64,000 nucleotides of DNA from an uncultured Pseudobdellovibrionaceae bacterium (GTDB lineage Bacteria; Bdellovibrionota; Bdellovibrionia; Bdellovibrionales; UBA1609): positions 74,218-138,217 of the forward strand of contig CAZCYD010000002.1 in the NCBI GenBank assembly GCA_964502735.1. The letters run 5' to 3'. Every line of letters starts with the position of its first letter. The stretch's first letter is position 1. Under the pieces are notes generated by a model. That model was not told the origin of the DNA and searched no databases. It worked only from the letters and a program-made list of their open reading frames with translations. Positions 11,503-64,000 of the stretch are shown here, piece by piece. The position numbers were made by a program, and so were the translations under genes.

Positions 11503-11508
11503 TCAGAT

Positions 11509-12198: not shown

Positions 12199-12200
12199 TA

Positions 12201-12935: not shown

Positions 12936-13017
12936 GCTTAGCTCTCCGCATAATTTCTAAATATCACTAAGTTTATCTTAATAGGGGGTACTTAGAGAAA
13001 CTATTCTTAACCTTGTT

Positions 13018-25922: not shown

Positions 25923-25936
25923 ATATAGATAAAGAA

Positions 25937-28240: not shown

Positions 28241-28269
28241 TTGACTAATAATAGGCTGATGTTAATAAT
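28241..28269 (+). promoter_or_regulatory. Candidate sigma70 promoter for the tRNA (TTGACT-N17-AATAAT)
   Basis: TTGACT at 28241-28246 and AATAAT at 28264-28269, 30 nt upstream of the tRNA 5' end. Confidence 0.4.
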
Positions 28270-28298
28270 TGCCAACTTCAAAGTTGTGCGTCTAGTGA

Positions 28299-28375
28299 GG
28301 CGGAGTAGCTCAGTTGGTTAGAGCAGCGGAATCATAATCCGCGTGTCGGGGGTTCAATTCCCTCCTCCGCTACCA
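28299..28375 (+). tRNA. tRNA-Met (anticodon CAT), elongator-like, CCA encoded
   Basis: Cloverleaf read by hand: acceptor GGCGGAG/CTCCGCT (G1-U72), D-arm GCTCAGTTGGTTAGAGC, anticodon stem GCGGA/TCCGC with loop ATCATAA, T-arm GGGGGTTCAATTCCCTC, then ACCA. A lysidine-modified tRNA-Ile2 cannot be excluded. Confidence 0.9.
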
Positions 28376-28400
28376 GTTTTAAATAATTAGAAAAATTCTC

Positions 28401-29774
28401 TCACGGGGATGTGAGGTCTCTCCAAAATCGATTACTATGGACCGAATTCTCAGATCGGGAATCAAACAACTGATTCCATAGTGGCCAATTGAAAAAAGTC
28501 ACTATGTTACCAGTTCCCATCCAATGTCCACCGGCGACATAAATCCTAATAAAGGCATTGGCAATCTGAACCTCAGAAGGGCTCAAGTCATAAAGGCCGG
28601 CGAGAATCTGAGCGTGGTGGGCCCATTGCCCGTGCAGCTCACCAAATTCACTTCGCTCCACCGGAATCTGCCCGCTAGCAATAGCAGACATAATATCTTC
28701 CATTTTCACCCGCCCCTGAAAGTTGACTTCTGCTTGCCAATCAAATCGTGCCAACTCCTCTTTAACATTCTGTTCACCGGATAAAATAACGGACCTTGCC
28801 TTTTCTTGATTTTCTCGCTTTTTCATTGAAGCAAAGAACTTGGCGGTAACCCTTCTGAGTACTTCAGGAGGGATTTTTTCTTTTTCGCCTAATCTGTTGA
28901 TAAATACGGGGCTAAGTCTGTCAAATCCGTCTCTGTGTACATCGAACAGAAGTTCTTCCGCTATTTTATAGTCGTTCGTTAGAGCAAACTCCAAAGCGAT
29001 TTCTTTGCTAATCTGTATCGGTCCCTTGATCTCCATGTTGTTAGTCTTCTCAAAAATAAATCCAACTGCCTCGATTAATGCATCTTCCTGTAAAAGGCTT
29101 ACAATGTCCTTCCCGCCACTTATATTCTGAAAATTTCTCACATACAAAGAAACCCAATCTGATCTTTGCTGCGATCGGAACTCCTGCAAAAGCGTATGAA
29201 TCTTTCGGTCCGAAGATCGAACTCTCAACACCATTTTTGTTTGAACATTTGGATTAGGATTCTTGCTAACAAAACTCATGGCGGCCCAACGTAGGAGACG
29301 CGTACGATCTTTAATGGCACTCCCAGATGCGATTGAGAATGCGCTCCTGAGGTTTGGGCGCGACCAGTGATGTTTTAGAGAATCTGTAAGAAGGGAGTGG
29401 TCAGATATTTGGTAAAGTTTGCTTCCCAGCAAAACTCTCTTTGCCATTTTTATTTCAACTTCAATAGCTTTGTCGCCGATCTGAATCGCGCTTAGTCCGG
29501 AATTGTCAACCGATTGCACATGGGTAAAATGAATTTGATCTTGGAAACTAAGGCCATCGGACATCACGAGCGCGCCGTTCTCAAGTTTGGCAAAATACTC
29601 TTCAAACCAGTACGTTTGTTGCGTATCTAAGATCGCAGCACAACGGGTTCCTGCCTGCGCCAATTCCAACAAAAAAAGCATTGCGACTGTTAACAAAGGT
29701 GACAGTGTTAGGCCTATCCTTGTAGTTTTCATAAGCTTGGTCACTATAAACTCACTCTGCATCAACCGTGCCAC
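28401..29774 (-). CDS. Hypothetical exported protein (457 aa ORFan)
   Basis: Long ORF with an N-terminal hydrophobic signal/anchor (LLTVAMLFLLELAQA). No motif recognised. Confidence 0.55.
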   Translation of the reverse strand: MARLMQSEFIVTKLMKTTRIGLTLSPLLTVAMLFLLELAQAGTRCAAILDTQQTYWFEEYFAKLENGALVMSDGLSFQDQIHFTHVQSVDNSGLSAIQIGDKAIEVEIKMAKRVLLGSKLYQISDHSLLTDSLKHHWSRPNLRSAFSIASGSAIKDRTRLLRWAAMSFVSKNPNPNVQTKMVLRVRSSDRKIHTLLQEFRSQQRSDWVSLYVRNFQNISGGKDIVSLLQEDALIEAVGFIFEKTNNMEIKGPIQISKEIALEFALTNDYKIAEELLFDVHRDGFDRLSPVFINRLGEKEKIPPEVLRRVTAKFFASMKKRENQEKARSVILSGEQNVKEELARFDWQAEVNFQGRVKMEDIMSAIASGQIPVERSEFGELHGQWAHHAQILAGLYDLSPSEVQIANAFIRIYVAGGHWMGTGNIVTFFNWPLWNQLFDSRSENSVHSNRFWRDLTSP

Positions 29775-29945
29775 AGATTCTTGTTTAATACGAATACCTG
29801 TACATAAGACTTTTTTGAACCTTTCTTATTTTTCACGATTCTCTCGTCCTATTGGAGGTAAATCGTTCACTAAAATTTGTCCAGTACTTTTAGGGAAGTC
29901 GAATTTATGAATGATATTTACAAGAAGTATTGAAATCCTCTTTAA

Positions 29946-30183
29946 AATTATTTTATACCAATAGTGAAATTAATGGAAAAGGTTCGTATTAATGGGAAAA
30001 TAAAAAAGTTTGATGAACCGAAAACACCATTTGAAAGAGTTCCAAACTCAAACAAAATAACTGCAGAGTAGAGGGAAAGGTTAATACAAAAAAGAAAAAA
30101 CTAAATCCATTTAAACTAAGAATGGGTTTGAAATAAAACTAAAAAAATTAAAATAGAAGCCAACAAGTTAAACAATTAATTTA
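29946..30183 (+). pseudogene. Decayed 3' fragment of a DDE transposase/integrase gene
   Basis: A single frame reads YFIPIVKLMEKVRINGKIKKFDEPKTPFERVPNSNKITAE*RERLIQKRKKLNPFKLRMGLK*N*KN*. It resembles the conserved C-terminal tail (..KL..K.R.G....K.YD.P.TPYERL....I..E.K..L......LNP..L) that I recall from integrase-core transposases. It is interrupted by several stops. Confidence 0.4.
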
Positions 30184-30331
30184 AGGCTTCATAGCTAATT
30201 ATTTCAGTTACATTTTTAAATGAGTCAACACGGTAATCCTGGCCTAAAGATTGCTCCGAATTTGGTCGGAATTAATGAGTTTTATGTGAGATCAATGGTA
30301 GCCCTATTTAAATTTGATCTTTGGAGACGAG

Positions 30332-30463
30332 ATGAAGACATTTTTTGTCACTTTGACATTCGTTACTTTGATTAGCAATGTTTTAAATACAGTTCATGCT
30401 GGAGAGAGGAATCCTTTTTCTAAAAATCGAGGGGTATTACAGTGGTTTTATGATCAAATATGA
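30332..30463 (+). CDS. 43-codon ORF encoding a signal peptide, in frame with 30578..32338 across a TGA
   Basis: GGAG at 30322-30325. The product is MKTFFVTLTFVTLISNVLNTVHA/GERNPFSKNRGVLQWFYDQI, with stop TGA at 30461-30463. The same frame stays open from 30464 into the 586-aa ORF. Confidence 0.45.
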   Translation: MKTFFVTLTFVTLISNVLNTVHAGERNPFSKNRGVLQWFYDQI

Positions 30464-30577
30464 TTTGATTCTCCAAAATCAAGAAAGCAATCCTGCCAGA
30501 ACTTATTAACTCTTTTATCTAGGGAAAATACGGAAGATATACCATTTGATTCTGGGGGAAAGGGGCTCTCTGATGCA

Positions 30578-32338
30578 TTGAGAGACATTCGACTACTAAT
30601 TTTAACCACTCCAGAAAGTCTATTTAATGAAGCCTGGGGGCCCATTAATAAAAAACATTTTAAAACTATTATACAAAAAATTGAGTTTGGCGAAATTGAA
30701 GCTACAGAATTGCAAAAAAATAGACTGTACGCATTTAATGAACTGTTAGATTCTAAAGCCAACAGTGCATTTTGGTCTAACGAGAGTAATCCGTGGACTG
30801 TTCTTATGTCAAATAATGTAGATCTTCATGGGCCTGGTCACCTCAACAATATTGGTGGCGTCATAGGAGGGACAGACACCTATGCTCTTAAAGAGTTAGA
30901 AAGAGATCTTGTGGCTTCGGCTCTAAATAAACAGCCTTATAGAGTAACAAGAGGCACATGGTACCAACGTCTAAATCATCCTTATTTCAAGGTTAAAAAA
31001 ATTATTCAATATTTTGATCAAATTCGTCTTGGCTTCGAATACATTGATGCCTTATTGATAATTCTTCGACATTACGGTGCGGAATTTCGTGAACTAAAGA
31101 CACTCCCTGAAGAATTAGCTGTTCTTCAGAAAATTCAGAGTGAAGTGTTGGAATTAAGAAAAAAAATTCGCCAAGAAACAACTGAAATACTTGGAGGTCA
31201 GGATATCTTTACCGGGGGCTGGCATCAGCATGAAGGTTTAGATATTTATAAGATTGCAAAGCAAATTGATATTAAAAAAGCTCTTCAGGGTACTCAGCGT
31301 ACAGATTTTATGGTTCAAGCAGAAACTATGGTGGAGCACCTGATTCAGCTTCGAGATCGGATACGGTTAAGAAGTGGACTCACTCCCAAACCTTTGGGTG
31401 ATTATTTGCCGGAGACACTCCGAATTCTTCATCATGCGCATAGGGCAAGTTCGACCATTTTAGTTGAGCAGCGCATGGATCTCATGAAAGAGAAGGTTAA
31501 AGGTCTTAAAGTAAGAGTGACTTATGACTACACTGAAACGACTGTTGTTACGAGAACGGATGCCAATGGGAAAACACATTTAACAACGAAAACAGAGGTC
31601 AAAAGCGATACAGATGCAGTAGAACTAAGTTATCATGACGTTTTAGTTGATCGTTTGGACAGATTTTCGAGAGGGCGTACTTTTAGTAGTCAACGTTCGT
31701 TCTCTTCAACTATCACTAAGGTTGAAGGTAAAGAAAGGGTTTTAAATGACAGTTTGAAGGCATTTGGATTAGAGAGACAATTAAATAAAACCGAAGAGAT
31801 TAGTCAGCTGTATAGGGAGCTCCTACAGGAACACTCCAGAATTCTTTTGGAAAATGACAGTCAAAGAGTCCAAAACCAATTATTACAGATAAATGAAGAA
31901 CTTGAAGAGTTAAAAAATCTTTTCGCGCAAATTAGGGACCAAAAAGCTATTTCAACAAGTGCAAATGCTGAACATATAATTCTTTCTCAGTGGGAGCATG
32001 ATGATCCCAAGCACTTTAAAAAAAGAATGCAAGCCCTCGAAGAAGCGCAAAATGAATTGTATTTACTTGTCGATGTTTATCAACAACAACTTAGGAAAAA
32101 AGATCCGCAATTAGTTATTCAAGCTGCCCGATTGGATCATACTCAAGCCATGAGCCGAATGCGCTTTAATGCAGGAACCTATTATATGGCAAGAGGTGGG
32201 CTAGTTGGAGGAGCTGGATATTCATTTTATAGTTTTTATGATGAAATTGAAAATCAAGCAGCTCGAGTGAACTCCTATATGGTTGATAGTGGCATTGATT
32301 TCCAGGCGATGTTTAATGCAATAATGAGTTTATTTTAG
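30578..32338 (+). CDS. Hypothetical coiled-coil-rich protein (586 aa as called; probably the body of a 5'-interrupted secreted-protein gene)
   Basis: Long ORF with a TTG track start. The upstream 114 nt are open and look like coding sequence. The Gly-rich C-terminus reads GGLVGGAGYSFYSFY. Confidence 0.6.
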   Translation: MRDIRLLILTTPESLFNEAWGPINKKHFKTIIQKIEFGEIEATELQKNRLYAFNELLDSKANSAFWSNESNPWTVLMSNNVDLHGPGHLNNIGGVIGGTDTYALKELERDLVASALNKQPYRVTRGTWYQRLNHPYFKVKKIIQYFDQIRLGFEYIDALLIILRHYGAEFRELKTLPEELAVLQKIQSEVLELRKKIRQETTEILGGQDIFTGGWHQHEGLDIYKIAKQIDIKKALQGTQRTDFMVQAETMVEHLIQLRDRIRLRSGLTPKPLGDYLPETLRILHHAHRASSTILVEQRMDLMKEKVKGLKVRVTYDYTETTVVTRTDANGKTHLTTKTEVKSDTDAVELSYHDVLVDRLDRFSRGRTFSSQRSFSSTITKVEGKERVLNDSLKAFGLERQLNKTEEISQLYRELLQEHSRILLENDSQRVQNQLLQINEELEELKNLFAQIRDQKAISTSANAEHIILSQWEHDDPKHFKKRMQALEEAQNELYLLVDVYQQQLRKKDPQLVIQAARLDHTQAMSRMRFNAGTYYMARGGLVGGAGYSFYSFYDEIENQAARVNSYMVDSGIDFQAMFNAIMSLF

Positions 32339-32437
32339 ATTTAATATTCTAAAACTTTCATTTACTTTCTACCCAATACTTTTGTCAGATAGGGGCTGCG
32401 AGTTTAAAAAGGTCGGCATATGCTTGAATATTTTTAG

Positions 32438-33838
32438 TCATTCAGATGATAAGGCCTTTTCTCTGAACCTGACTTCTTCAAGCTCTTTTTCAGCTAAATA
32501 GAGAACTTTGTTTAGCCCTACACCTGTTGTGAGGTTCCACGGTAACCACTGCAAAAAGGAATTAAATTTTGCAAAAGACTGATGAAGATAGGTGTCATTT
32601 ATTTTTGTCCACTCTAGGGTGTCTGTAATTGCAAACTCTAGAAAATCTGATGTTTTGAGAGGTTTTATGGAGTTTCCCATTATTTGGTAAAAACCATCAT
32701 CGTAGACACCACTTTCGACATCCCTTTTAAAGCGAGCGAATAACTTATTTATTTGAGGGCTTTCATTTAAGTAAAGGTAAAGGTTGTGAGAGGCTTCTGG
32801 AATAAATAGGACTTTAATTTTTCCACCTTGTGAGATTCGTGATTTTATCATTTCATAGGTCATCAGTCTGGGTATGATTCCCTCATGCTGCCCAGGAACT
32901 ACCAGCAGAACCTCGGTTTCAGTTGAGACGCCGATAATTTCTTGTGTACCATCGAAATCTGTAAGCCCAATTGTTAAGGATGTGGCTGCGTCAAGGCGCC
33001 ATTCTTCACTGCGGCTGTGAATAATGCCAGCTAAGGAATCTTTAATGTCTCCAGCTATCATGTGACCAAGGATTTCTTTTGAGCTTTGGTTTAAATACAG
33101 GCGTTGGCTCAGGTCAGGGTATAAAAAGCGAAACCAAGTCATGACGCCGGGATCAAAAAGCGTAAGCATTTTAGGTTGTTGCTCCATTTTTTTAGAAATG
33201 GCATTAGCAATTTTTCCCCCGTAAGATTTTCCGAAAACCTCTAAACGGAGACTTCCCTTTTCGATGTCGCTTTTTAGATTCCATGAACGAAGCGTTTGAT
33301 CGATAACTTCAGCAGCTAATTGGATATTGTCCTCAATTGGAATTGCAGCGATTTGTCCTAAAGTGCTCTCGCCAAAATTGTGTTTGTTGTGCAGATAGGT
33401 TTTGCCTTGACCCAAGAGCTCGACAGAAACAACTGTGGTATTGGGATCCTTAAGTATTGGTGTTAAAAAGCCATTGATTGTTTTGGCGTAGGAGTCAATC
33501 CTTTCGAGGTCTGTCATCAAGCCGCCAAAGATGTAGAGGATTCGCTGGGGTTTTCTAAGGCTTGTTTGCGGGTTTAATCCATAAATCTTAAACCGAATTT
33601 TTACGTTTTTTTCAGGATAGAAATTTTCTAAAGTTATCCACTTGGCAGAATTAGGTGGAGATTTTTTGCCAAGAACTGAAGTTTTTAGGGCTTCGCTACA
33701 TTTGTTAATAATTTTTTTTATGGTCTGTGGCATTGGCGGTGGAGCTGCATGAGAATGAGTCAATCCTGTCAATCCCACAAGAGAGTAAAAAAATATAAAT
33801 AGCAAAGCAAACCTAAGGCTTAGTTTTGTATGAAACAA
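32438..33838 (-). CDS. Exported alpha/beta-hydrolase-like protein (putative lipase/esterase)
   Basis: Signal peptide, the nucleophile-elbow-like FGKSYGG (G-x-S-x-G), and a late His in PEASHNL. Length 466 aa. Confidence 0.45.
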   Translation of the reverse strand: MFHTKLSLRFALLFIFFYSLVGLTGLTHSHAAPPPMPQTIKKIINKCSEALKTSVLGKKSPPNSAKWITLENFYPEKNVKIRFKIYGLNPQTSLRKPQRILYIFGGLMTDLERIDSYAKTINGFLTPILKDPNTTVVSVELLGQGKTYLHNKHNFGESTLGQIAAIPIEDNIQLAAEVIDQTLRSWNLKSDIEKGSLRLEVFGKSYGGKIANAISKKMEQQPKMLTLFDPGVMTWFRFLYPDLSQRLYLNQSSKEILGHMIAGDIKDSLAGIIHSRSEEWRLDAATSLTIGLTDFDGTQEIIGVSTETEVLLVVPGQHEGIIPRLMTYEMIKSRISQGGKIKVLFIPEASHNLYLYLNESPQINKLFARFKRDVESGVYDDGFYQIMGNSIKPLKTSDFLEFAITDTLEWTKINDTYLHQSFAKFNSFLQWLPWNLTTGVGLNKVLYLAEKELEEVRFREKALSSE

Positions 33839-33933
33839 TGCTATAATCCCCTTTAGCCGACTTTATGGCTTTTTTTTTGTTTGATGTCATTTGGTAAATT
33901 TACAAAAATTTGTTAATAACGTGAGAAGTTTGT

Positions 33934-35025
33934 TTATTTGAGATCAACTAGGCTGATACCAATCGATTGTGAGTAGTTGGTAAAATTTTTAGCCTGATCG
34001 TAGGCGGAACTCAAACGTAGGGGGCCCATTCTTAGTTCCACACCCATAGTGAAGTGGAGTCTTGGCTCTGTGTAGTTGAGTCTGGAGGGCTCTTGGTAGC
34101 CTCCTCCTCTCCAGATAAATTCAATATTCTTCTTGTTGAGAACAAAAAACTCAAATCCACCGTGCCAAATGATGTGATTCTTATGTAAGAGCTCCTGTGA
34201 GGAGTTATTTATGTCGCTACCAATTAAAAACACGTTTTGTTGTTTAGAGTAGTGGTCAATATCTCCAACAAGGATTAGGTTTTGGTTCAACTTGAAAGAA
34301 AAGCCCATGCTTAATTTGTCTGCAATAGACATGTTTTGAAACCAGCTTCCAAATTCATTTTGGATTTCTGCATTTAAGTTAGAATTAATTTTGTATTCAC
34401 GCCCAGCTCGGTAGGTAATGCCAAACTTCCATCGATTATCCGGCCTAAATAATACACCGAAGGTTGTGGACAGCTGGCTATCAGAATCTTCTAAAAGGGG
34501 TAAAGCTGCGGATGAGGCCCCCATTGTGGCGGTTTCACTGTGCAGAGTGAAACCCAAGGAAAGGTTTTTCCACATTAAAAATGACAAGCTAACATCTAGG
34601 CTCTCAATTTTTGCTGAATACTTTGTAGCTCCACCAGGAAGTGAATGATGCAGTTGAAAAGGGGTTGTGTATCCTAGCCCCAAACCTAATCTGCCAAAGT
34701 TAATTCCGGCTGTGACATAGTTGAATATGTAGGGGATTCCATCTGGATTCCCATCAAAATTTATGTCTCCTTCTCTATTAATGACCCGATTGGTGGAACT
34801 TTGCATATCAAAGCTCCATCGCGACATTGAAACTCCTGCTGGATTTAATAAAACAGCACTGGCATCATCGGCTAGGCCCACAAAGGCCCCTCCCATGCCT
34901 AGGAGTCTTGTAGACCCTGTGGTGTGGAGCCCATAAACTCCGTAGGAGGGGGAACTGGCAAAGGAAGTTGTAGTGAAAAGCCACAAGGCCAGAAAAGTTA
35001 AGGTTTTTACAAGATGTGATGACAT
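33934..35025 (-). CDS. FadL/OmpP1/TodX-family outer-membrane hydrophobic-compound transporter
   Basis: Signal peptide, the N-terminal hatch motif LGMGGAFVGLADDASAVLLNPAG, and beta-strand periodicity. Length 363 aa. Confidence 0.65.
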   Translation of the reverse strand: MSSHLVKTLTFLALWLFTTTSFASSPSYGVYGLHTTGSTRLLGMGGAFVGLADDASAVLLNPAGVSMSRWSFDMQSSTNRVINREGDINFDGNPDGIPYIFNYVTAGINFGRLGLGLGYTTPFQLHHSLPGGATKYSAKIESLDVSLSFLMWKNLSLGFTLHSETATMGASSAALPLLEDSDSQLSTTFGVLFRPDNRWKFGITYRAGREYKINSNLNAEIQNEFGSWFQNMSIADKLSMGFSFKLNQNLILVGDIDHYSKQQNVFLIGSDINNSSQELLHKNHIIWHGGFEFFVLNKKNIEFIWRGGGYQEPSRLNYTEPRLHFTMGVELRMGPLRLSSAYDQAKNFTNYSQSIGISLVDLK

Positions 35026-35054
35026 AATTACTACGCAGTCAAATAATAGGATTC

Positions 35055-35600
35055 ATGAAGAATTTTATATTTATATTAGGTTTTTGGCTCTTTAATTCTG
35101 AGACAAGCTTGGCCAACGTCCAACTCTCTGTCGAGCCTTATATTGGCTATAGTAAAATGAGTATAAAACAAGATAACTTTTCCGACAGCCAAATGGCTTC
35201 AGTTTTAGGCGGAAAGGGTGGCTTTTCTTTAGGTAAATGGGCTTTCTATCTAGACTTTCATTTTGGTGGCCCTTATTTGTTTGAAGATAACAATAATGAC
35301 TACACTCACTACATGTGGGGTGCTGGAGTTAATTATTCATGGAAAAAAATTAGAACCTATGCAGGGTATTATTTTAGAAATACATTAGAAGATGTCGAAA
35401 GAAATATCAAATACACTGGGAGTGGGATAAAAGTATCTTTTGGACTAACCTTTGAGTCAAGGCTATCTATTAATTTGGAGTTTATTAAACAAACCTTTAA
35501 TCAGCTCGATGCCAGCCAATTGAATACGAGCACTGCAAACCTCTTTGAATTAGAGTCTACGGTTGCATTTTTTACTATTAGTGCCCCCATATCTCGTTAA
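35055..35600 (+). CDS. Small outer-membrane beta-barrel protein (hypothetical)
   Basis: Signal peptide and alternating aromatic/Gly strands (YIGYS, GGKGGFSLG, GAGVNYSW). Length 181 aa. Confidence 0.45.
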   Translation: MKNFIFILGFWLFNSETSLANVQLSVEPYIGYSKMSIKQDNFSDSQMASVLGGKGGFSLGKWAFYLDFHFGGPYLFEDNNNDYTHYMWGAGVNYSWKKIRTYAGYYFRNTLEDVERNIKYTGSGIKVSFGLTFESRLSINLEFIKQTFNQLDASQLNTSTANLFELESTVAFFTISAPISR

Positions 35601-37156: not shown

Positions 37157-37241
37157 TACAATAGGATAAATAAGGTGAGAAAATCTTAAACATAACTTTT
37201 TTGGCTAAATTTTTATAAATTATTGTGTATAGTTGTTAAAG

Positions 37242-37883
37242 ATGTATCAGATTCGAAGACATAAAAGACCCTTTGCCATACCCCTGTTAATTGCCATCAA
37301 TATCGCTGTTTATTTAACGTGGAGATTGGGCTGGCTTCCACAGGATTTTATGAGTCAAAACTTTCTAATCAGCTGGTCGGCTCTTGAGTCGGGTAGATAT
37401 TGGGTGCTTTTAACGCCTGCGTTTTCTCACATTTATTTATTCCACATTTTTATTAACATGTATGTATTAAAAAGTTTCGGTGGCTTTATGGAAGTTTTTA
37501 TGGGAAGGCGTCGAATACTCTTGTTTTATATATTTGCTGGAATAATAGGAAACCTCCTCCACGCTGTCACTTCTTACTTTTTGTTAGACAAGCCTGAATT
37601 ACCAGCCTTGGGGGCCTCAGGTTCAGTTGCAGGAATTATTTTATTGTTCTCTCTGCTTTTTCCTAAAGAAAAAATATTGTTTTTTGGCATTCTGCCCATG
37701 CCTGCTATTTTTGGAGCTTTAGCCTTTGTCGGGTTTGATCTTTGGGGGCTTTATACTCAATCTCAAGGAGGAGGCCTGCCAATTGGGCATGGTGCGCATC
37801 TAGGGGGAGCTTTTGCCGGAGTCATTTATTTTTTATGGCTGAGATGGAAGTCCTTAAAAGGGCTAAATACGGGTAGGATTTGA
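37242..37883 (+). CDS. Rhomboid-family intramembrane serine protease (second copy)
   Basis: GASGSVAGIILLFS catalytic Ser motif and HGAHLGGAFAGVIYF His motif. ATG 37242 is preferred over the track start TTG 37233. Confidence 0.85.
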   Translation: MYQIRRHKRPFAIPLLIAINIAVYLTWRLGWLPQDFMSQNFLISWSALESGRYWVLLTPAFSHIYLFHIFINMYVLKSFGGFMEVFMGRRRILLFYIFAGIIGNLLHAVTSYFLLDKPELPALGASGSVAGIILLFSLLFPKEKILFFGILPMPAIFGALAFVGFDLWGLYTQSQGGGLPIGHGAHLGGAFAGVIYFLWLRWKSLKGLNTGRI

Positions 37884-42356: not shown

Positions 42357-42935
42357 TTGTTAACATCAGACAAAAAGCAAAAGATCCGTCAGGATTTACT
42401 TTTGCGTAGAAGCCATTTAAATGAGGGTGATAAAAACCTCTTTGATCACAGAATTCAGAGTTTCTGTCGGGCTCTGCTGGAAGAGTATCGGCCCTCTATT
42501 GCCGCTGGATACAGGTCTTTAAAACATGAGGCCTCTTTGGATGGTTTGTTTTTTTCTGAAAATCAAAAGTGGGCTTTCCCTGTTGTCACTAAAAATCATT
42601 TAACATTCCGATTGGCAGAGAGTTTTCACAGTTTTGATGTGGGTTCTTTTGGTGTACTTGAGCCAAGTTCAGACTGTTTGGAAATTCCATTAGAGAATTG
42701 TCCTCTTGTATTTGTTCCTGGAGTGGCTTTTGACGGTCGCGGCAAAAGACTGGGGATGGGCAAGGGCTACTATGATAAGGCCTTGTCAAGCTATTCAGGA
42801 GTTAAGGTTGGAGTTTGTTACAAACTTCAAATTTTAGAGGAGTCTCTTCCACATGAGGCTCATGATGTTGAAATGGACTTTATAGTTACAGAAGATTTTA
42901 TTTTATCGCCAATTCACAATAAGAGGTTAAATTAA
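42357..42935 (+). CDS. 5-formyltetrahydrofolate cyclo-ligase
   Basis: VFVPGVAFDGRGKRLGMGKGYYDK motif, 192 aa. zapA-adjacent synteny is known from other proteobacteria. Confidence 0.85.
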   Translation: MLTSDKKQKIRQDLLLRRSHLNEGDKNLFDHRIQSFCRALLEEYRPSIAAGYRSLKHEASLDGLFFSENQKWAFPVVTKNHLTFRLAESFHSFDVGSFGVLEPSSDCLEIPLENCPLVFVPGVAFDGRGKRLGMGKGYYDKALSSYSGVKVGVCYKLQILEESLPHEAHDVEMDFIVTEDFILSPIHNKRLN

Positions 42936-44518
42936 TGGAGACACAAATCATTATTACAGGTCTAGTGAGTATTATTTTGGGCCTGGGCCTGGGAGCGGGG
43001 TTATTGCATTTTTATTCAGTTATTCAGGGTAATAAAAAAAAGGAAGCTGCCCAAAAAGAAGCTGAGAGAATTGTTAATAGAGCTAAATCACAGGTATCTA
43101 AAATAGAGAGAGAGGCTGTAGCCAAGGCAAAAGACTTTGAAGCCAGAGCTAGAAAAAATGCTGAAAATGAAATTAAAAAGCAAAAGCAAAAGCTGACTCA
43201 ACAGGAGATGCAGCTAAAGGATCGAGAAGTACAGATTCAAAAAGAGTACAAAAAGAAAGAAGAAGACTTGCAGACTCAGGTCAAGGATCTTAAGGATCGG
43301 GCAGAAAGGCTGGTCATTGCTGAAGAGAGAATCAAAAACATGGAAACAGAGGTTGTTGAGCAGACAAATAAACTACAGAAGAAGTTGGAGTCCATTTCAA
43401 GCTTAACCTCTGAACAGGCCAAGGAAGAACTTATGCTAGCAATGGAAGAAGAGGCTCATCGACTGGCAGCTGTGCAAATCGAAAAGATAGATTCAGAAGT
43501 TAAAAAAGAGGCCGATTTTAAGGCTAAACAAATATTGACCACGGCGATTTCTCGTTATGCAAGTGAAGTGGCTACAGAGAGAACCGTGAGCATCATAGGA
43601 CTAACCAGTGATGAGATGAAGGGAAAAATTATTGGTAGAGAGGGGCGCAATATCAGGGCTCTGGAGGCCGCCTGCGGAGTGGATTTAATCGTAGATGAAA
43701 CGCCAGAGTCTGTCGTCATATCAAGTTTTGACCCCGTAAGAAGAGAAATTGCTCGTTTAACATTGCTGAAATTGATGGAAGATGGTCGTGTTCATCCAGG
43801 ACGAATTGAGGAAGTCGTTACTCAGGTGAAGACAAAACTGCAAGAGTCCATAAAAGAAGATGGAGAGAGAGCTTGTTTTGATTTGGGTATAGTGAACATG
43901 CACAGCTCATTGCAAAACTTATTGGGAACTCTCAAATATAGACAATCAAATATGCAGAATTTGTATAAACAAAGTATTGATGTGGCTTACCTTGCAGGAA
44001 TGTTAGCGGGCGAGTTAAATGCAAATGTAAAAGTGGCTAGGCGAGCAGGCCTATTGCATATGATTGGCCGCGCGATCGATCACACTGTAGAAGGAAGCTA
44101 CGCTGCCGTAGGAGCTGAATTTGCCAGGCGTCATGGCGAGGATGATCATGTTTGTCAGGCTATCCGGTGTCACAATGGAGAGGTCGAAGCCAGGTCTTTG
44201 TTAGATCATTTAGTTCAGGCTGCCTTTAACCTAACAGAATCCCGTCCTGGAGCTAAAAGAAATAATATGGAGGGGTATATCCGCCGTTTAGAAGATCTTG
44301 AGTCCATAGGTAATAGTTTTGATGGGGTATCTAGAACATTTGCCATACAAGCAGGAAAAGAGATTCGTGTTTTAGTAGACAGCGGAAAAATCACGGATGA
44401 TCAGTCTAAGATGTTAGTTCGAGATATAGCTAGAAAAATTGAACGCGAGCTAAACTATCCTGGGCAAATTAAAGTTACGGTCGTTAGAGAAACTAGAATT
44501 GTAGAACACGCGAGGTAG
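42935..44518 (+). CDS. rny: Ribonuclease Y
   Basis: N-terminal TM helix, a long K/E coiled coil, the KH motif [12 protein letters not shown], and an HD domain (HMIGRAIDH...). Confidence 0.92.
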
Positions 44519-57827: not shown

Positions 57828-57865
57828 ACCCAAATCTTGACGCATTTTATCCGCAGATCTGGGCT
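57828..57865. repeat. REP-like family copy filling the gap between convergent genes
   Basis: ACCCAAATCT-TGACGCATTTTATCCGC-AGATCTGGGCT, with one stem mismatch. It lies between stop codons at 57824-57826 (+) and 57864-57866 (-). Confidence 0.8.
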
Positions 57866-59729
57866 AATATTGTATCTGTCGGTAGAGCTGATAGTTGCCA
57901 GCGCCAGACAGAGACCTGACTTCAATTAGATAGTATCCAGGAGCGCCAAAGTAGTTAATTTTCTCATTAGACTTTGTGCCAATAGATCTTGCGACTTCAA
58001 TCCAATCTGAGCCACTCCATCTGTACAGATGCAAGTCAAAATTAGTATTTACTGGTCCTTCAAGAGTATAGTTGTGTGTGGAACTCTTCAGAGTTTGATA
58101 ATAGTTCCCATTTGGTTGGTACTGGCGATCACCACTGTGGTTGAGGACACCGCTAAATATTTCACAAACGGGGCAAGGGTTAGGCGGTTGTTGAGTAGAT
58201 AGGGCGTAATTAGCAACTAATTGTAAATTGGAATATGAGGAATAAGCGCGAATCATAATGTGATACTCGCCCTCATTTGGATTAACAAAATTGCAAGTTT
58301 CTTCGTTTCCATTTTTGTAAGGGCGACAATCGTATTGATTAAGTGTGGGTGAGAGTCCACTTTTTACATAAAGATCAGCGTCGCCCGCTCCTCCAAAGAT
58401 GCGAACCTCTAAACTTGTAACACCAGAAGGTAGAATTAAGCGATAGTGAAGTTCTTCTCCACGAGGGCTTGAAGTTATTTTTTTGTTTACACCATTTTGA
58501 AGTACATTGTTTTCTAGATCTAACTCTTGCCCAATAAAAGCCGTGTTGAGCATACGATTGGGGGAACTAAGGACCTGACTTAATTTGTCTTTAACAGAAT
58601 TCGTGATGATAGATGATGAGACTTCATTTGGATTAGCTTGAGGACGAATAGACATGAACATTGCGGTAACCCCGGCTACATGTGGGGCGGCCATGGATGT
58701 TCCACTAAGTGTTGCGGTCGCATTATTGGAATTGTACCAGGCTGAAAGAATATCACTTCCCGGCGCAAAAATATCAACACAGTTTCCATGATTTGAAAAT
58801 GACGATCGCCGGTCTTGGGAATCAGTGCTTCCTACAGTTATGGCCTCTGTTATTCTTGCTGGAGAGCTGTTACAGGCATTGGTGTTTTCGTTACCTGCGG
58901 CAACAACATAAATTATTCCATTCGAAATAGAGGCTCTAATCGCATCATCTAAGGCTTGAGAAGCCGGTCCACCAAGGCTCATATTTGCGATTGCGGGTTT
59001 GGTGTGATTAGCTGTCACCCACTCAACTCCAGCTATAACAGAAGAGTAGGTTCCTGAGCCTACACAATCGAGCACTCTAATTCCGTAGAGTTTTACTTTT
59101 TTTGCAACTCCATATCTTTTACCACCGATTGTTCCAGCGACGTGGGTTCCGTGTCCATTGCAATCTGTGGCATCCCGATCAGAATCAACTGTGTCTACTC
59201 CATGAAAGGCCCGGCCTTCAAAGTCTGTGTGGGTTGTTAAGATGCCTGTATCTATTACGTATACATTTACATTTGAAGCTTCGGACTTAAATTCGTATGT
59301 CTGGTTAAGTGGGAGGCTCTCTTGATCTATACGATCTAAGCCCCATGTAGGATTTATTTGTGTGTTATTCAGGGATATTTTTTGATCTTTTTCAATATAA
59401 GCCACGCGAGGGTCTTTGGCTAGAATTTCCGATTGCTCTTTTGTTAATTTCATTAACCCACCCATTATTGTTAAATGAAAGGAGTGGACAACTTCGGAAT
59501 GGCTCAAAGTAGATAAATCATTAAGGGTGGAAACAACAAGGTCTTTCTGAGCTAAATTGTGTTGGTTTTGAACAAATAAAGATTGTATATGAGATTTTTT
59601 AAGAACCACAATATAGTCAGATTTAACTTGTGAGTTATTAAATGTATCTGAGTTTTTAAAATCATTCGTACAATTTGTTAAAAAAATAACTGCAAAAGTT
59701 GCGAGTAATAATACTTTTATTTTAAACAA
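57864..59729 (-). CDS. Proteinase-K-like S8 serine protease with an N-terminal I9 propeptide and two C-terminal PPC-like domains
   Basis: VYVIDTGI (Asp), [12 protein letters not shown] (His), [13 protein letters not shown] (Ser). LTNC lipobox. Two ~100-aa C-terminal repeats carry the DADLYV / FDLHLY patterns. Confidence 0.9.
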
Positions 59730-59920
59730 ATTTATCTCCTTTGATTTTCGGATTAAAACCTAACCTGAGATTAAGACGGGAACAGATTGTATAAGGGTTA
59801 GTTAAATTGTAGATATTCAGACAAAGGTCCTGGAAATAAGAAAGGGTTGGTGCTATCAAAGCTGAAATTTAATCAGAATAGATTTCTGATTATCAGCTAG
59901 AAAAATTTAATTGGCTAGAT

Positions 59921-60625
59921 TTAATTGGGAAAGTTAGGGTGCCAGGCGTATAGTAAACTCCCGTGTTGTAGTCGGCGAACTACGGATTCTGCCAATGGCA
60001 TTTCTACGGCTGGGCAACCCCAACTTCTGCCTATAAGAGATCGATCTTCTCTAACATAGTTGGCTCCGTGAATGACTATAGCTCTTCGGCGAGCCAAACT
60101 ATTGCGTTTTTCAAGACCATCAAGGCGCAATGAAAGGCCATATTTTCCATAGTAAGGCTCGGCTGTTAAATAAAAGCCAAGAGAGGTCATTTTTGAACCT
60201 GAAACATTAGAAAACGTCTGCGCATATCCTGTGTGTTGGGGGTCAGAGCCGGTGCCATGAGCAGAGAGCAGAGAGTCTACATTTCCATTTTCGAGGTTAA
60301 TAATAAACTTTCTCTTTTCGCTGGAATGAACGGAGAAGTCTATAATTGTCATATATTTTCGGTTTTTAATGTTTTTTTGATTTTGATCGTAGTAATTAAA
60401 GGCTTCTTCTAGGGCCTGGGCGGGGACGCCTTGAGCTATGACATGATCGTAAAGGCTGGAGGAGTTGAAAGTTTTTATTTCAAGCGAATCTGATGACTCC
60501 TCATCGGCAATAGATATTTCTCTGTCCCAGATTGACTCATAAGTGTCTTCCGCACAGGAAGACAATAGAATAAGACTTATCGTGATAAAACTAATTCGCA
60601 GAGGTAATAACTTTTTTAGACTCAT
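59921..60625 (-). CDS. YkuD_2-type L,D-transpeptidase catalytic-domain lipoprotein
   Basis: LLSSCAED lipobox. IVIHGANYV...GRSWGCPAV catalytic His/Cys motif. Confidence 0.75.
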   Translation of the reverse strand: MSLKKLLPLRISFITISLILLSSCAEDTYESIWDREISIADEESSDSLEIKTFNSSSLYDHVIAQGVPAQALEEAFNYYDQNQKNIKNRKYMTIIDFSVHSSEKRKFIINLENGNVDSLLSAHGTGSDPQHTGYAQTFSNVSGSKMTSLGFYLTAEPYYGKYGLSLRLDGLEKRNSLARRRAIVIHGANYVREDRSLIGRSWGCPAVEMPLAESVVRRLQHGSLLYAWHPNFPN

Positions 60626-61643: not shown

Positions 61644-61898
61644 GTTCCTTCTTTATGCATATTCCAAGTCTTATTTTCAATCCTTATCTTTAACTTCTAT
61701 ATATCTTTACTCTCTATACACTTTCTATACACTCTCTCTACATGGATATGCTGCACACAAGCTTTAGTCTGTTGACATTTGAATAGAGGGTATTCGCCGA
61801 GAGAGGTGCCCTCATTCATTATTATAGTGAGTAAAAAGTTCCAAAAACTAGGCCATTTCATTGATTTTTTTTGCAAAAAAATCTAGTAATAGTTGCTT

Positions 61899-62843
61899 AT
61901 GCAATTTGAAGGATCGGAAAAAAAATTAGAAGTTGTCTTTTCAGCATCTGTTGGCGACCTGAGGGATAAGGGGCTGGGCTTTTGGCAGTTATTAGTGAGT
62001 TCAGCCAAGGCTCAAATCCTTTCAAGCATGAGGGGGGAGAACTGTGAGGCTTATTTGTTGTCTGAATCCAGTCTTTTCGTTTGGAGCGACAGATTAACCT
62101 TGATCACTTGTGGTCAAACCACTTTAGTTGAAGCTATTAAGTTTATTCTTAAGTCCTTCAATCTGACTCAAATCCGATCACTAATATTTCAGAGAAAAAA
62201 TGAGTATTTCCCGTATTATCAACCTTCCAACTTTTTTGAAGACGTTCGAGAGTTAAATTTACATATCGATGGAAAGTCTTTGAGGTTTGGAGGAGCCGAT
62301 GAGCATCATCTTTTTTTATATCATTTGAACAAGGCTTATGAACCTTTGGCCACAGATCGAACTTTAGAAGTGCTAATGTACGATCTTTCTCCTGAAACGC
62401 TTGAAATCTTCCGCTGTGGATCATTTAGTGCTTTTGAATTAAGAGAAAAAACAAGTGTTGATAAAATCTTTTCTGGTTTTAGCATCGACGACTTTGTTTT
62501 TGAGCCTTATGGTTATTCGTTAAATGCGATTCGTGGTACTGACTACTACACAATTCATGTTACACCTCAAGAGATGAGTTGTTATGTCAGCTTTGAAACA
62601 AATGCTCATATTTCAGATTTGGAACTAAAATCAACACTAAATAAAGTTATTGGAATTTTTAAGCCAAATAATTTTGACGTAGTCTTTTTTGATCCGCACA
62701 AGCTAGTTCCCCAGGATGTCGATGGATACGAACAAAAGAGTTGTGTTGAAGGGGAGCTGTCTTGTGGGTATCAAGTGTCGTTTAATCACTTCTATAAAAA
62801 AACAAATTTCCCTCAGCGCCCGGTAGAAATTAAGGAGTTTTAG
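61899..62843 (+). CDS. speD: S-adenosylmethionine decarboxylase proenzyme, eukaryotic-type (class 2)
   Basis: Matches the class-2 enzyme over its full length: N-terminal FEGSEKKLEVVF, autoprocessing site EAYLLSESSLFV, LITCGQTTL, FQRKNEYFP, TLEVLMYDL, FEPYGYSLN, YYTIHVTPQEMSCYVSFETN and FKPNNF. Confidence 0.88.
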   Translation: MQFEGSEKKLEVVFSASVGDLRDKGLGFWQLLVSSAKAQILSSMRGENCEAYLLSESSLFVWSDRLTLITCGQTTLVEAIKFILKSFNLTQIRSLIFQRKNEYFPYYQPSNFFEDVRELNLHIDGKSLRFGGADEHHLFLYHLNKAYEPLATDRTLEVLMYDLSPETLEIFRCGSFSAFELREKTSVDKIFSGFSIDDFVFEPYGYSLNAIRGTDYYTIHVTPQEMSCYVSFETNAHISDLELKSTLNKVIGIFKPNNFDVVFFDPHKLVPQDVDGYEQKSCVEGELSCGYQVSFNHFYKKTNFPQRPVEIKEF

Positions 62844-62845
62844 TC

Positions 62846-63721
62846 ATGGCACAAATTCATAAGCTTAATGGAGTTTCTTATGTGGTGGAGTTTCACCAAG
62901 ATAAATACTTACAGGGCTGGGCTTTAGATGAAGTTCTGTTTTCAGGAGAAAGTTCCTTTCAGAAAGTCGATGTAGTAAAAACCAAGTACATGGGAAATAT
63001 GCTCTTAAACGATGAGCTTGTTATGACATCTGATCGGGATGAATTTTCATATCACGAAATGATGGCTCATGTGCCATTATTTACTCACCCGAAACCAGAA
63101 CGCATTCTCATTATTGGTGGGGGAGACGGTGGAACAGCAAGGGAGGTCTTAAAACACCCCTCAGTTAAAGAATGTGTAATGGTTGAGATTGATGATATGG
63201 TAGTAAAAGCATCTCGAGACTTTATTCCTTCAACATCCTGTGAATTGGACAATCCACGACTGAAACTGATTATCGATGATGGTGTTAAATACGTAAAGGA
63301 AACGGAAAAGCACTTTGACGTAATTTTAATTGATTCAACGGATCCTATTGGCCCTGGTGCCCCACTATTTGGAGATGAATTTTATCAGAATGTGAAAAAA
63401 CTATTAAATCCTAAAGGCGTAGTTGTGGCTCAAGGAGAATGTGCGTGGATAGCTCCAAAGGCCCAGGAGGGGTTGTTAAATATTATTCGTAAAAACTTTT
63501 CAGTTGTGGGTCTTTACAATTACACCAATATTACCTATCCCGGTGGGACTTGGTCATTTACATGGGCTTCAGAAGATTTGAACCCTCGCTCCGACTTTAA
63601 AGCTGAGAGAGTTGACGAACTAAATTTAGAGTTAAGATATTATAACAAAAACCTGCATACAGCCTGTTTTTCTTTACCACAGTTTTATTATGATATGTAC
63701 GGTGATTTTTTGACTATATAA
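62846..63721 (+). CDS. speE: Spermidine synthase (aminopropyltransferase)
   Basis: ILIIGGGDGGTAREVLKH, VEIDDMV and LIDSTDPIGPGAPLF motifs. 2 nt after the speD stop. Confidence 0.92.
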   Translation: MAQIHKLNGVSYVVEFHQDKYLQGWALDEVLFSGESSFQKVDVVKTKYMGNMLLNDELVMTSDRDEFSYHEMMAHVPLFTHPKPERILIIGGGDGGTAREVLKHPSVKECVMVEIDDMVVKASRDFIPSTSCELDNPRLKLIIDDGVKYVKETEKHFDVILIDSTDPIGPGAPLFGDEFYQNVKKLLNPKGVVVAQGECAWIAPKAQEGLLNIIRKNFSVVGLYNYTNITYPGGTWSFTWASEDLNPRSDFKAERVDELNLELRYYNKNLHTACFSLPQFYYDMYGDFLTI

Positions 63722-63765: not shown

Positions 63766-64000
63766 ATGACAAAAAAAGCTCCAAACCAAGATATTTCAAT
63801 AATAGAAAAACAGTTGCAGATACTGTTGCCATTTATTACTGAAAGTCGTTGGAATAGAATTGTAGAAATAGTTGAAAATAGAACTTATAATGTTGTACCC
63901 GTACTGGAGCATATTTACGACAGTGGAAACACGAGTGCTGTTATGAGAAGTGCTGAGGCTTTTGGCTTCTCAAAGTTTCATATTATTGAACGTCCTGATG
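63766..64000 (+). CDS. trmH: SpoU/TrmH-family RNA 2'-O-methyltransferase, N-terminal part (3' end outside the window)
   Basis: Hand translation gives MTKKAPNQDISIIEKQLQILLPFITESRWNRIVEIVENRTYNVVPVLEHIYDSGNTSAVMRSAEAFGF..., matching the TrmH N-terminal pattern (N.SA..R.A.A.G). The frame is open to the window end. Confidence 0.7.
   Translation, partial: MTKKAPNQDISIIEKQLQILLPFITESRWNRIVEIVENRTYNVVPVLEHIYDSGNTSAVMRSAEAFGFSKFHIIERPD

What the first reader, a model, noticed from the sequence alone, without database searches (positions are those of the whole stretch)
61899..62843. Eukaryotic-type (class 2) AdoMet decarboxylase in a bacterial speD-speE operon
The 314-aa product aligns motif for motif with the eukaryotic enzyme rather than with the E. 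coli-type or Bacillus/archaeal-type class 1 proteins. The shared motifs are FEG.EK.LEV.F, the pyruvoyl-forming cleavage site YLLSE|SS, TCG.T.L, F.RKN, TLE.LM, P.GYS.N and Y.TIH.TP....SYVSFETN. It is translationally adjacent to a normal bacterial spermidine synthase, with a 2-nt gap. The class 2 architecture is an internal duplication of the class 1 fold and is generally regarded as the eukaryotic form. Bacterial examples bear on the origin of the eukaryotic enzyme, or on inter-domain transfer into a predator or associate of other cells.
Basis: partly seen in the sequence, partly recalled or inferred. Interest (0 to 1): 0.58.

Follow-up and report, generated by a model that had tools for sequence, protein, structure and literature searches.

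The report
Class 2 AdoMet decarboxylase, bacterial operon
This gene really does encode the "eukaryotic-type" S-adenosylmethionine decarboxylase next to a bacterial spermidine synthase, but it belongs to a large bacterial group of such enzymes already reported in the polyamine literature, so it is a sound but ordinary find.

Summary
ORF 61899..62843 (+), 314 aa, matches Pfam PF01536 (class 2 SAM_decarbox) end to end at E 2.7e-67 and has no class 1 hit. An AlphaFold model (pLDDT 95) superposes on the human proenzyme at TM 0.89. The ES|S processing site and all catalytic residues are present. A canonical bacterial speE follows after 2 nt, with a Shine-Dalgarno inside the end of speD.

The protein sits in a large bacterial clade: more than 150 clusters at 50% identity score above 180 bits, and 27 of 33 related species genomes keep the same speD-speE pair. 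These are mostly Bdellovibrionota plus marine Gammaproteobacteria. GC content matches the surrounding chromosome, and no copy was found on plasmids or phages.

Bacterial class 2 enzymes are already in the literature: PMC10407285 cites Li et al. 2019 (Biochem J 476:2579) and interprets them as an old acquisition from eukaryotes.

My neighbour-joining tree puts all 178 bacterial sequences in one clan apart from the sampled eukaryotes (96% bootstrap). That clan is as internally diverse as eukaryotic supergroups are from each other. The tree is unrooted, so transfer direction stays open.

Verdict: a functional spermidine-pathway enzyme, a new member of a known kind, of low to moderate interest.

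The parts
61644..61898 (+). Intergenic region between the divergent GT2 glycosyltransferase gene and speD; presumed promoter region
   Evidence: ORF map. The sigma-70 consensus scan found no site here above its threshold, so the promoter is inferred, not shown.
61899..62843 (+). speD: class 2 S-adenosylmethionine decarboxylase proenzyme, 314 aa, 36.2 kDa
   Evidence: PF01536 E 2.7e-67, full length. Human AMD1 in PDB E 1.8e-36. AF2 pLDDT 95.2. Foldseek TM 0.89 to 1jl0. Mass.
61899..62066 (+). Predicted beta chain (residues 1-56, 6.2 kDa), carrying F3, E4, E7 and E11 (human F7, E8, E11, E15)
   Evidence: Alignment to human and 199 bacterial homologues; mass.
62064..62069 (+). Predicted autoprocessing site: codons GAA-TCC = E56|S57. 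S57 would become the pyruvoyl group.
   Evidence: Read from the sequence. Aligns to human E67|S68, and E, S, S are invariant in 178-199 bacterial homologues.
62067..62840 (+). Predicted alpha chain (residues 57-314, 30.1 kDa), carrying C71, F201, S207, H220 and E233 (human C82, F223, S229, H243, E256)
62832..62837 (+). AAGGAG Shine-Dalgarno for speE inside the 3' end of speD, 8 nt before the ATG; suggests translational coupling
   Evidence: Read from the sequence. Coupling is an inference.
62846..63721 (+). speE: spermidine synthase / polyamine aminopropyltransferase, 291 aa
   Evidence: NF002010 337 bits (cutoff 260) and TIGR00417 310 bits (cutoff 249.55). PF01564 plus PF17284. Best PDB hits are B. 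subtilis 1iy9 and T. maritima 1inl.
63766..64000 (+). Start of a downstream ORF cut by the window end. It looks like a SpoU/TrmH-type methyltransferase by eye and is possibly co-transcribed.
   Evidence: The same ORF follows speE in L001 and L033 at 51-53% identity. No terminator-like site was found between it and speE. The family assignment was not tested.

Best explanation
This is a working two-gene spermidine module on an ordinary bacterial chromosome. The organism is most likely a member of Bdellovibrionota.

The speD gene encodes a class 2 AdoMetDC proenzyme. This is a single chain that contains both halves of the alpha-beta-beta-alpha sandwich, which class 1 enzymes build from two subunits. 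The inferred mechanism follows the human enzyme:
- The proenzyme cleaves itself between E56 and S57, with H220 and S207 assisting.
- S57 becomes a pyruvoyl group at the N-terminus of a 30 kDa alpha chain, and a 6 kDa beta chain is released.
- AdoMet binds with its adenine stacked between F3 and F201.
- After decarboxylation, C71 reprotonates the intermediate.

The product, decarboxylated AdoMet, is used by the translationally coupled SpeE to aminopropylate putrescine into spermidine.

The gene belongs to a large, old, vertically maintained bacterial clade of compact class 2 enzymes (about 313 aa, against about 370 aa in eukaryotes). It is not a recent import. The family, fold, residues, operon and clade membership are shown here. 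Autoprocessing, activity and product are inferred.
For: - **Family and fold.** PF01536 matches full length and no class 1 family hits. The AF2 model has pLDDT 95.2 and pTM 0.93. Foldseek gives TM 0.89 and 32% identity to the human proenzyme 1jl0. Class 1b T. maritima 1vr7 covers only about 115 residues, TMq 0.27.
- **Residues.** The human positions F7, E8, E11, E15, L65, E67, S68, C82, D174, T176, E178, F223, S229, H243 and E256 are all conserved in the window protein. They are near-invariant in 178-199 bacterial homologues. Their roles in AdoMet and putrescine binding are as listed in PMC3686867.
- **Partner.** The speE product exceeds the NCBIfam equivalog cutoffs. The gap is 2 nt with an internal Shine-Dalgarno.
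- **Operon conservation.** speE lies directly downstream in 27 of 33 related species genomes and next to a divergent representative, P0231.
- **Residency.** speD is 37.6% GC against 39.5% for the window. Neighbours are housekeeping genes: rpsA, cmk, ftsY, tyrS, nrdR. There is no tblastn hit in plasmid or phage collections.
- **Clade size.** 4231 clusters at 90% identity have E<=1e-5. 1857 representatives at 50% identity have E<=1e-3, and 355 have E<=1e-30.
- **Literature.** PMC10407285 states that some bacteria encode a class 2 AdoMetDC, citing Li et al. 2019.
Against: - No experiment exists on this protein.
- The score against the eukaryote-seeded equivalog TIGR00535 is 168 bits, below its 233-bit cutoff.
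- The ribose ligand E247 of the human enzyme is Gln here. It is Q in 105 and E in 61 of 178 bacterial sequences.
- Human K80 is Ile and human L13 is Lys, so regulation by putrescine may differ from the human model.
- No putrescine-forming gene (ODC, ADC, agmatinase) was found among the window ORFs scanned. The diamine source is therefore unknown.
- The organism identity rests only on similarity and local synteny to Bdellovibrionales and Pseudobdellovibrionaceae MAGs.
Confidence: 0.9

Rival explanations
1. Neofunctionalised homologue: the protein keeps the pyruvoyl fold but decarboxylates L-ornithine or L-arginine, supplying putrescine or agmatine to SpeE rather than decarboxylated AdoMet. This has been shown for many class 1b SpeD homologues.
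For: PMC10407285 documents such switches in class 1b SpeD homologues. Human E247 is Gln here and human C226 is Tyr. No putrescine-forming gene was seen in the window.
Against: The adenine-stacking pair F3/F201 and the L54/E56 positions that define AdoMet binding are invariant. SpeE needs a decarboxylated-AdoMet supplier, and no other speD was seen locally. Homologues carrying Glu at position 247 and those carrying Gln are both common in the same bacterial clan, whose internal branches are unresolved. All documented switches are in class 1b, not class 2.
Confidence: 0.05
2. Recent inter-domain transfer or contamination: a eukaryotic AMD1-type gene newly acquired by, or mis-assembled into, a predatory or host-associated bacterium.
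For: The family is overwhelmingly associated with eukaryotes in textbooks. The published view is that bacterial copies came from a eukaryote (PMC10407285).
Against: Identity to any sampled eukaryotic group is only 29-33%, against 40-60% to bacterial homologues. The gene is intron-free, matches the chromosome in GC, and is coupled by 2 nt to a bacterial speE. The same gene pair recurs in independent assemblies and in 27 of 33 species. All 178 bacterial sequences form one clan in 96% of bootstraps.
Confidence: 0.02
3. Polyamine-independent role: the decarboxylated AdoMet feeds aminopropylation of a non-polyamine substrate. This was proposed for bacterial AdoMetDCs paired with MFS-SpdSyn-like fusion proteins (Li et al. 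2019; its content is recalled from memory, because the paper is not in the library).
For: Some class 2 genes in this clade lack an adjacent speE, for example Pokkaliibacter L011 and L012.
Against: In this window the partner is a soluble 291-aa canonical SpeE. It scores above the spermidine-synthase equivalog cutoffs, while the MFS_SpdSyn model scores only 36 bits, below its cutoff of 40.
Confidence: 0.03

Closest known systems
Human and other eukaryotic class 2 AdoMetDC (AMD1; PDB 1jl0, 1msv, 1i7b)
   Same: Same Pfam family and the same single-chain duplicated fold (TM 0.89). Same ES|S processing site and the same catalytic Cys, His, Ser and Glu residues. Same adenine-stacking Phe pair, and the acidic putrescine-site residues E15, D174, T176, E178 and E256 are retained.
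   Different: Only about 32% identical. About 20 residues shorter than human and about 55 shorter than the eukaryotic median, because it lacks loop insertions. Substitutions are K80 to Ile, L13 to Lys, E247 to Gln and C226 to Tyr. It is encoded in an operon with speE, and its score falls below the TIGR00535 cutoff.
Bacterial class 2 AdoMetDCs described by Li, Kurihara, Kim, Liang & Michael 2019 (Biochem J 476:2579), as cited in PMC10407285
   Same: The same kind of object: a eukaryotic-type AdoMetDC encoded in a bacterial genome. The window protein falls within the single bacterial clan.
   Different: I could not read that paper, so I cannot say whether this lineage was among those tested. The databases searched here show a far larger and more divergent bacterial clade than the words 'some bacteria' suggest.
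Prokaryotic class 1a (E. coli SpeD) and class 1b (B. subtilis, T. maritima SpeD; PF02675)
   Same: Same chemistry (a pyruvoyl group made from an internal Ser), the same pathway role, and the same partnership with speE.
   Different: No sequence-level hit. The class 1b structure aligns to only half of the model: about 115 residues, TMq 0.27. Class 1 enzymes form the sandwich from two chains.
Trypanosomatid AdoMetDC (PDB 5tvf)
   Same: Shares the 'LITCG' motif and the pairing of a basic residue at human position 13 with a hydrophobic residue at position 80. The T. brucei alpha chain is the best PDB hit for the window's alpha chain.
   Different: Kinetoplastid enzymes need a prozyme paralogue. 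They have lost T176 and E178 (Q and S), which the bacterial enzymes keep. They sit on the eukaryotic side of the tree.
AdoMetDC-aminopropyltransferase fusion proteins of bacteria (Green et al. 2011 Mol Microbiol, recalled from memory)
   Same: Relatives of the window protein exist as class 2 AdoMetDC-SpdSyn fusions, for example P0184, 633 aa. That is the same gene order as here, merged into one ORF.
   Different: Here the two genes are separate, with a stop codon and a 2-nt gap.

Membership tests
Class 2 AdoMetDC (Pfam PF01536 SAM_decarbox) | Full-length match to the family profile above the gathering score | tested here: met
   227.7 bits against a cutoff of 22.2, profile positions 3-342 of 343
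Class 2 AdoMetDC (Pfam PF01536 SAM_decarbox) | A single chain of about 300 or more residues forming the whole four-layer alpha-beta-beta-alpha sandwich (internal duplication of the class 1b fold) | tested here: met
   AF2 pLDDT 95.2. TM 0.89 over about 318 columns to human 1jl0. Class 1b 1vr7 aligns to only about 115 residues.
Class 2 AdoMetDC (Pfam PF01536 SAM_decarbox) | Glu-Ser processing site whose Ser becomes the pyruvoyl group (human E67|S68) | tested here: met
   E56-S57-S58 is present and invariant in the bacterial clade
Class 2 AdoMetDC (Pfam PF01536 SAM_decarbox) | Processing and catalytic residues Cys82, Ser229, His243, Glu8 and Glu11 | tested here: met
   C71, S207, H220, E4 and E7
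Class 2 AdoMetDC (Pfam PF01536 SAM_decarbox) | AdoMet-binding residues Phe7, Leu65, Glu67, Phe223 and Glu247 (as listed in PMC3686867) | tested here: inconclusive
   Four of five are conserved (F3, L54, E56, F201). Glu247 is Gln224. In the bacterial clade this position is Q in 105 and E in 61 sequences. Gln could still hydrogen-bond the ribose, which is an inference.
Class 2 AdoMetDC (Pfam PF01536 SAM_decarbox) | Autocatalytic cleavage and AdoMet decarboxylase activity | not testable with these tools
   Needs protein expression. Predicted products are 6.2 and 30.1 kDa.
NCBIfam TIGR00535 SAM_DCase (equivalog) | Score at or above the curated cutoff of 233.15 bits | tested here: not met
   168.4 bits. 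The alignment is full length but too divergent for the equivalog threshold.
Putrescine-activated (human-type) subclass | Putrescine ligands Glu15, Asp174 and Thr176, plus the buried charge relay Lys80, Glu178 and Glu256 | tested here: inconclusive
   E11, D153, T155, E157 and E233 are conserved, but Lys80 is Ile69 and Leu13 is Lys9. Activation cannot be predicted from sequence.
Class 1 AdoMetDC (Pfam PF02675 AdoMet_dc; E. coli or Bacillus type) | Match to the class 1 profile, with a 110-270 aa subunit forming half of the sandwich | tested here: not met
   No hit at E<=0.01. There is only a half-length structural match.
Spermidine synthase SpeE (TIGR00417 / NF002010), for the adjacent gene | Score above the equivalog cutoffs, with tetramerisation and catalytic domains | tested here: met
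   310 bits against 249.55, and 337 bits against 260. PF17284 plus PF01564. Best PDB hits are 1iy9 and 1inl.
Bacterial class 2 AdoMetDC clade | Groups with bacterial sequences and apart from eukaryotes, with a compact length of about 313 aa and a speD-speE operon | tested here: met
   The clan of 178 has 96% NJ bootstrap. Median length is 313 aa. The operon is present in 27 of 33 loci.

The most novel reading that the evidence does not exclude
The bacterial class 2 clade may not be a small offshoot of the eukaryotic enzyme.

- It is as internally divergent as eukaryotic supergroups are from one another: mean 36.5% identity within bacteria, against 29-41% between supergroups.
- It forms a single clan that joins Euglenozoa and the animal, fungal, plant and Acrasis group at what is effectively a trichotomy.
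- It is uniformly compact.
- It shares the basic-13/hydrophobic-80 residue pair with Euglenozoa.

The evidence therefore does not exclude that the class 2 fusion arose in bacteria, for example in a Bdellovibrionota-like lineage. It could then have been passed to the eukaryotic stem, or exchanged before the last eukaryotic common ancestor. That would reverse the published direction of transfer.
Probability: 0.15. Interest if true: 0.7.

Novelty: new member of a known kind. Interest (0 to 1): 0.25.

Why it matters
The gene itself just makes spermidine. The wider point concerns the origin of the eukaryotic AdoMetDC, which is an open question. PMC10407285 proposes a SpeD-SpeDC fusion ancestor and treats class 2 as a eukaryotic invention. 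The sheer size, depth and operon organisation of the bacterial class 2 clade seen here suggest that question deserves a properly rooted, well-sampled phylogeny. The compact bacterial enzymes may also be convenient models for class 2 autoprocessing and for how a built-in lysine might replace putrescine activation. This particular window adds one more member and no new principle.

Tried and rejected
- **Class 1 assignment: rejected.** No PF02675 hit and only a half-length structural match.
- **Recent eukaryotic import or contamination: rejected.** Based on GC content, operon structure, independent assemblies and clade structure.
- **Mobile-element carriage: no support.** tblastn found nothing in PLSDB plasmids or INPHARED phages.
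- **Reading Li et al. 2019 and the Bale & Ealick review: failed.** Neither is in the library. Their content is therefore cited only through PMC10407285 and PMC3686867, or marked as memory.
- **Naming divergent representatives by cluster look-up: no organism names returned.** Gene context was used instead to show they are bacterial.
- **AFDB Foldseek search for taxon names: library unavailable.**
- **Profile search seeded with human, yeast and Arabidopsis:** returned almost only vertebrates, Saccharomycetaceae and Brassicaceae. Eukaryotic sampling is therefore coarse. A T. brucei query added Euglenozoa and Acrasis.
- **Promoter scan:** found no consensus sigma-70 site upstream of speD.
- **Organism identification:** the exact window genome was not among the GTDB species representatives scanned, and no rRNA lies in the window.

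Full report
**1. Observation**

The window holds an ORF at 61893/61899..62843 on the + strand. The ATG at 61899 gives a 314-aa product starting MQFEGSEKK, which matches the M-x-FEGSEKK starts of its homologues.

The exception is that the residue before YVSFETN is Cys, not Ser.

The stop codon TAG (62841-62843) is followed by 'tc' and the ATG of the next ORF at 62846. An AAGGAG lies at 62832-62837, 8 nt before that ATG. The 2-nt gap is therefore confirmed, and translational coupling is plausible but inferred.

**2. What it is**

Profile searches:
- Pfam gives one family only, PF01536 SAM_decarbox (the class 2 family), at E 2.7e-67 over profile positions 3-342 of 343. No class 1 family appears at E<=0.01.
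- NCBIfam TIGR00535 aligns full length but scores 168 bits, below its equivalog cutoff of 233.
- In PDB the best sequence hits are the human proenzyme entries 1msv and 1jl0, at E about 1e-36.

Structure:
- An AlphaFold2 model built on 50 homologues has mean pLDDT 95.2 and pTM 0.93.
- Foldseek superposes it on human 1jl0 at TM 0.89 and 32% identity.
- The class 1b enzymes of T. maritima and A. aeolicus align to only about 115 residues, TMq 0.27. That is one half of the duplicated fold.

Residues:
- Every residue I checked for processing, catalysis and adenine stacking is conserved. In human/window numbering these are F7/F3, E8/E4, E11/E7, L65/L54, E67/E56, S68/S57, C82/C71, F223/F201, S229/S207 and H243/H220.
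- The putrescine-site residues are also conserved: E15/E11, D174/D153, T176/T155, E178/E157 and E256/E233. Their roles are as listed in PMC3686867.
- Four positions differ: K80 is Ile69, L13 is Lys9, E247 is Gln224 and C226 is Tyr204. The first two are clade-wide in bacteria, with K or R at position 13 in 173 of 178 sequences and I or L at position 80 in 175 of 178. Euglenozoa share this pairing as R13/I80.
- Plants carry Arg at position 13. From memory of the potato structure paper, that Arg mimics bound putrescine. The bacterial Lys9 may act similarly, but this is a lead, not a test.

The downstream gene, 62846..63721, is a canonical spermidine synthase:
- NF002010 scores 337 bits against a cutoff of 260, and TIGR00417 scores 310 bits against 249.55.
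- Its best PDB relatives are B. subtilis 1iy9 and T. maritima 1inl.

**3. Context**

The window is an ordinary bacterial chromosome of 39.5% GC. speD is 37.6% GC and speE is 38.5%.

It carries housekeeping genes: cmk, rpsA, nrdR, rsmB, ftsY, RNase Y and tyrS. It also carries many secreted proteases and L,D-transpeptidases. Apart from speD and speE, no polyamine gene was seen among the ORFs scanned.

The upstream divergent GT2 gene and the downstream SpoU-like ORF are shared with a Bdellovibrionales MAG (L001). The downstream ORF is also shared with a Pseudobdellovibrionaceae MAG (L033). The organism is therefore probably a member of Bdellovibrionota. This is inferred from similarity and synteny only.

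The identical speD-speE pair occurs on three independent short-read assemblies.

**4. How common it is**

- The word-indexed search found 4231 clusters (90% identity) at E<=1e-5. The best 120 are all 44-60% identical and 309-377 aa long, all but one between 309 and 333 aa. Where named, they come from Bdellovibrionales, Pseudomonadota or Elusimicrobiota MAGs.
- The exhaustive search of 50%-identity representatives found 1857 at E<=1e-3 and 355 at E<=1e-30. The top 150 all score above 179 bits, whereas the human enzyme scores about 130 bits.
- A narrow-pattern scan of GTDB species genomes gave 33 loci:
  - Bdellovibrionota: Bacteriovorax, Halobacteriovorax, Bacteriovoracaceae, Oligoflexia, Pseudobdellovibrionaceae and Bdellovibrionales.
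  - Marine Gammaproteobacteria: Thalassotalea, Colwellia, Psychrosphaera and Pokkaliibacter.
- In 27 of the 33 loci, speE lies immediately downstream.
- Divergent representatives also sit in clearly bacterial neighbourhoods. One lies next to the mraZ-rsmH-ftsI-murE cluster, with speE downstream, and another lies near uvrC. One is a 633-aa class 2 AdoMetDC-SpdSyn fusion.
- No copy was found on plasmids or phages.

**5. Literature**

[quoted passage not shown] Reference 46 is Li, Kurihara, Kim, Liang & Michael 2019, Biochem J 476:2579. That paper is not in the library. From memory, its abstract says bacterial class 2 enzymes are enzymatically functional and phylogenetically limited.

PMC9992855 notes that no class 2 enzymes were found in viruses. 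No paper in the library links AdoMetDC with Bacteriovorax, Halobacteriovorax or Bdellovibrio.

**6. Phylogeny (my own, coarse)**

I aligned 205 sequences with MAFFT L-INS-i and kept 307 columns. The set comprised:
- the window protein;
- 33 genome-derived bacterial proteins;
- 144 bacterial-type metagenomic proteins: 140 50%-identity representatives and four 308-325-aa hits from the T. brucei search;
- 24 named eukaryotes: vertebrates, yeasts, Brassicaceae and potato, kinetoplastids and other Euglenozoa, and Acrasis;
- 3 unnamed Euglenozoa-like sequences.

Neighbour-joining on Kimura-corrected distances with 200 bootstraps gave these results:
- All 178 bacterial and metagenomic sequences fall in one clan, apart from every eukaryote, in 192 of 200 replicates.
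- The tree is effectively a trichotomy of bacteria, Euglenozoa, and animals+fungi+plants+Acrasis.
- The bacterial backbone is unresolved.
- Mean identity is 36.5% within the bacterial clan, 29-41% between eukaryotic supergroups, and 29% between bacteria and eukaryotes. Median length is 313 aa in bacteria against 370 aa in eukaryotes.

This fits a single ancient transfer followed by long residence and diversification in bacteria. It argues against recent or repeated imports from the sampled eukaryotes.

The tree has clear limits. It is unrooted, built by NJ only, and lacks SAR, Amoebozoa, Metamonada and other groups. It cannot give the direction of transfer.

**7. Mechanism**

The steps below are inferred by homology to the human enzyme:
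- Autoprocessing at E56|S57 gives a 6.2 kDa beta chain and a 30.1 kDa pyruvoyl-alpha chain.
- AdoMet forms a Schiff base with the pyruvoyl group.
- Decarboxylation follows, and C71 reprotonates the intermediate.
- SpeE uses the decarboxylated AdoMet to convert putrescine to spermidine.

The source of putrescine is unknown. Uptake from prey would be a reasonable guess for a predator, but that is speculation.

**8. Verdict**

Both the observation and the class 2 assignment are right. The significance is modest. The gene is one more member of a large, chromosomally resident bacterial class 2 clade whose existence is already published.

The residual interest is evolutionary. The clade looks much larger and deeper than 'some bacteria', and the direction of the ancient transfer is not settled by anything I could run.

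Noticed in passing
window 24082..35600: A run of nine ORFs (168-586 aa) has no Pfam family at E<=1e-5; a HEAT-repeat ORF (25191..25922) interrupts the run, and it lies around the only tRNA in the window (28299..28372). It may be a lineage-specific or acquired island.
   Followed up: no
window 3722..14748 and 57864..60625: The window is rich in proteases and cell-wall enzymes, which fits a predatory lifestyle. It has two S8 subtilases (13018..14748 and 57864..59729), two tandem M16 peptidases (8634..11465), an S49 peptidase, two rhomboids (5590..6375 and 37233..37883), and YkuD and YkuD_2 L,D-transpeptidases.
   Followed up: partly
L040 5001..6902 (protein P0184); also P0192: A 633-aa single ORF fuses a class 2 AdoMetDC to a spermidine synthase (PF01536+PF17284+PF01564) in a Gram-negative LPS-gene neighbourhood. 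P0192 (620 aa) is probably the same architecture.
   Followed up: partly
L011 5995..6927 and L012 (Pokkaliibacter): This class 2 speD has no speE within 6 kb. It is flanked by an adenosine deaminase gene and bolA. It may be an 'orphan' AdoMetDC with a different partner.
   Followed up: partly
L021 6001..6900 ('Sulfitobacter sp.' MAG): Its speD groups at 100% bootstrap with Halobacteriovorax sequences (L016, L009, L017), and its first 25 residues differ from those of L016 only at position 2 (V for A). This suggests a mis-binned contig or a very recent transfer.
   Followed up: no
window residues K9 and I69 of speD (61923..61925 and 62103..62105): A basic residue at human position 13 paired with a hydrophobic residue at human position 80 is shared by nearly all bacterial class 2 enzymes (K/I) and by Euglenozoa (R/I). 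Animals and fungi have L/K, plants R/K and Acrasis K/K. It may be an intramolecular substitute for putrescine activation, or a phylogenetic marker.
   Followed up: partly
window 42935..44518: An RNase Y homologue (RNase_Y_N + KH + HD) lies between a 5-formyltetrahydrofolate cyclo-ligase gene and tyrS.
   Followed up: no
P0013, P0056, P0065: Several NCBI records name close bacterial homologues 'hypothetical protein'. This is probably because they score below the TIGR00535 equivalog cutoff, as the window protein does (168 against 233 bits). It is an annotation gap for the bacterial class 2 clade.
   Followed up: no
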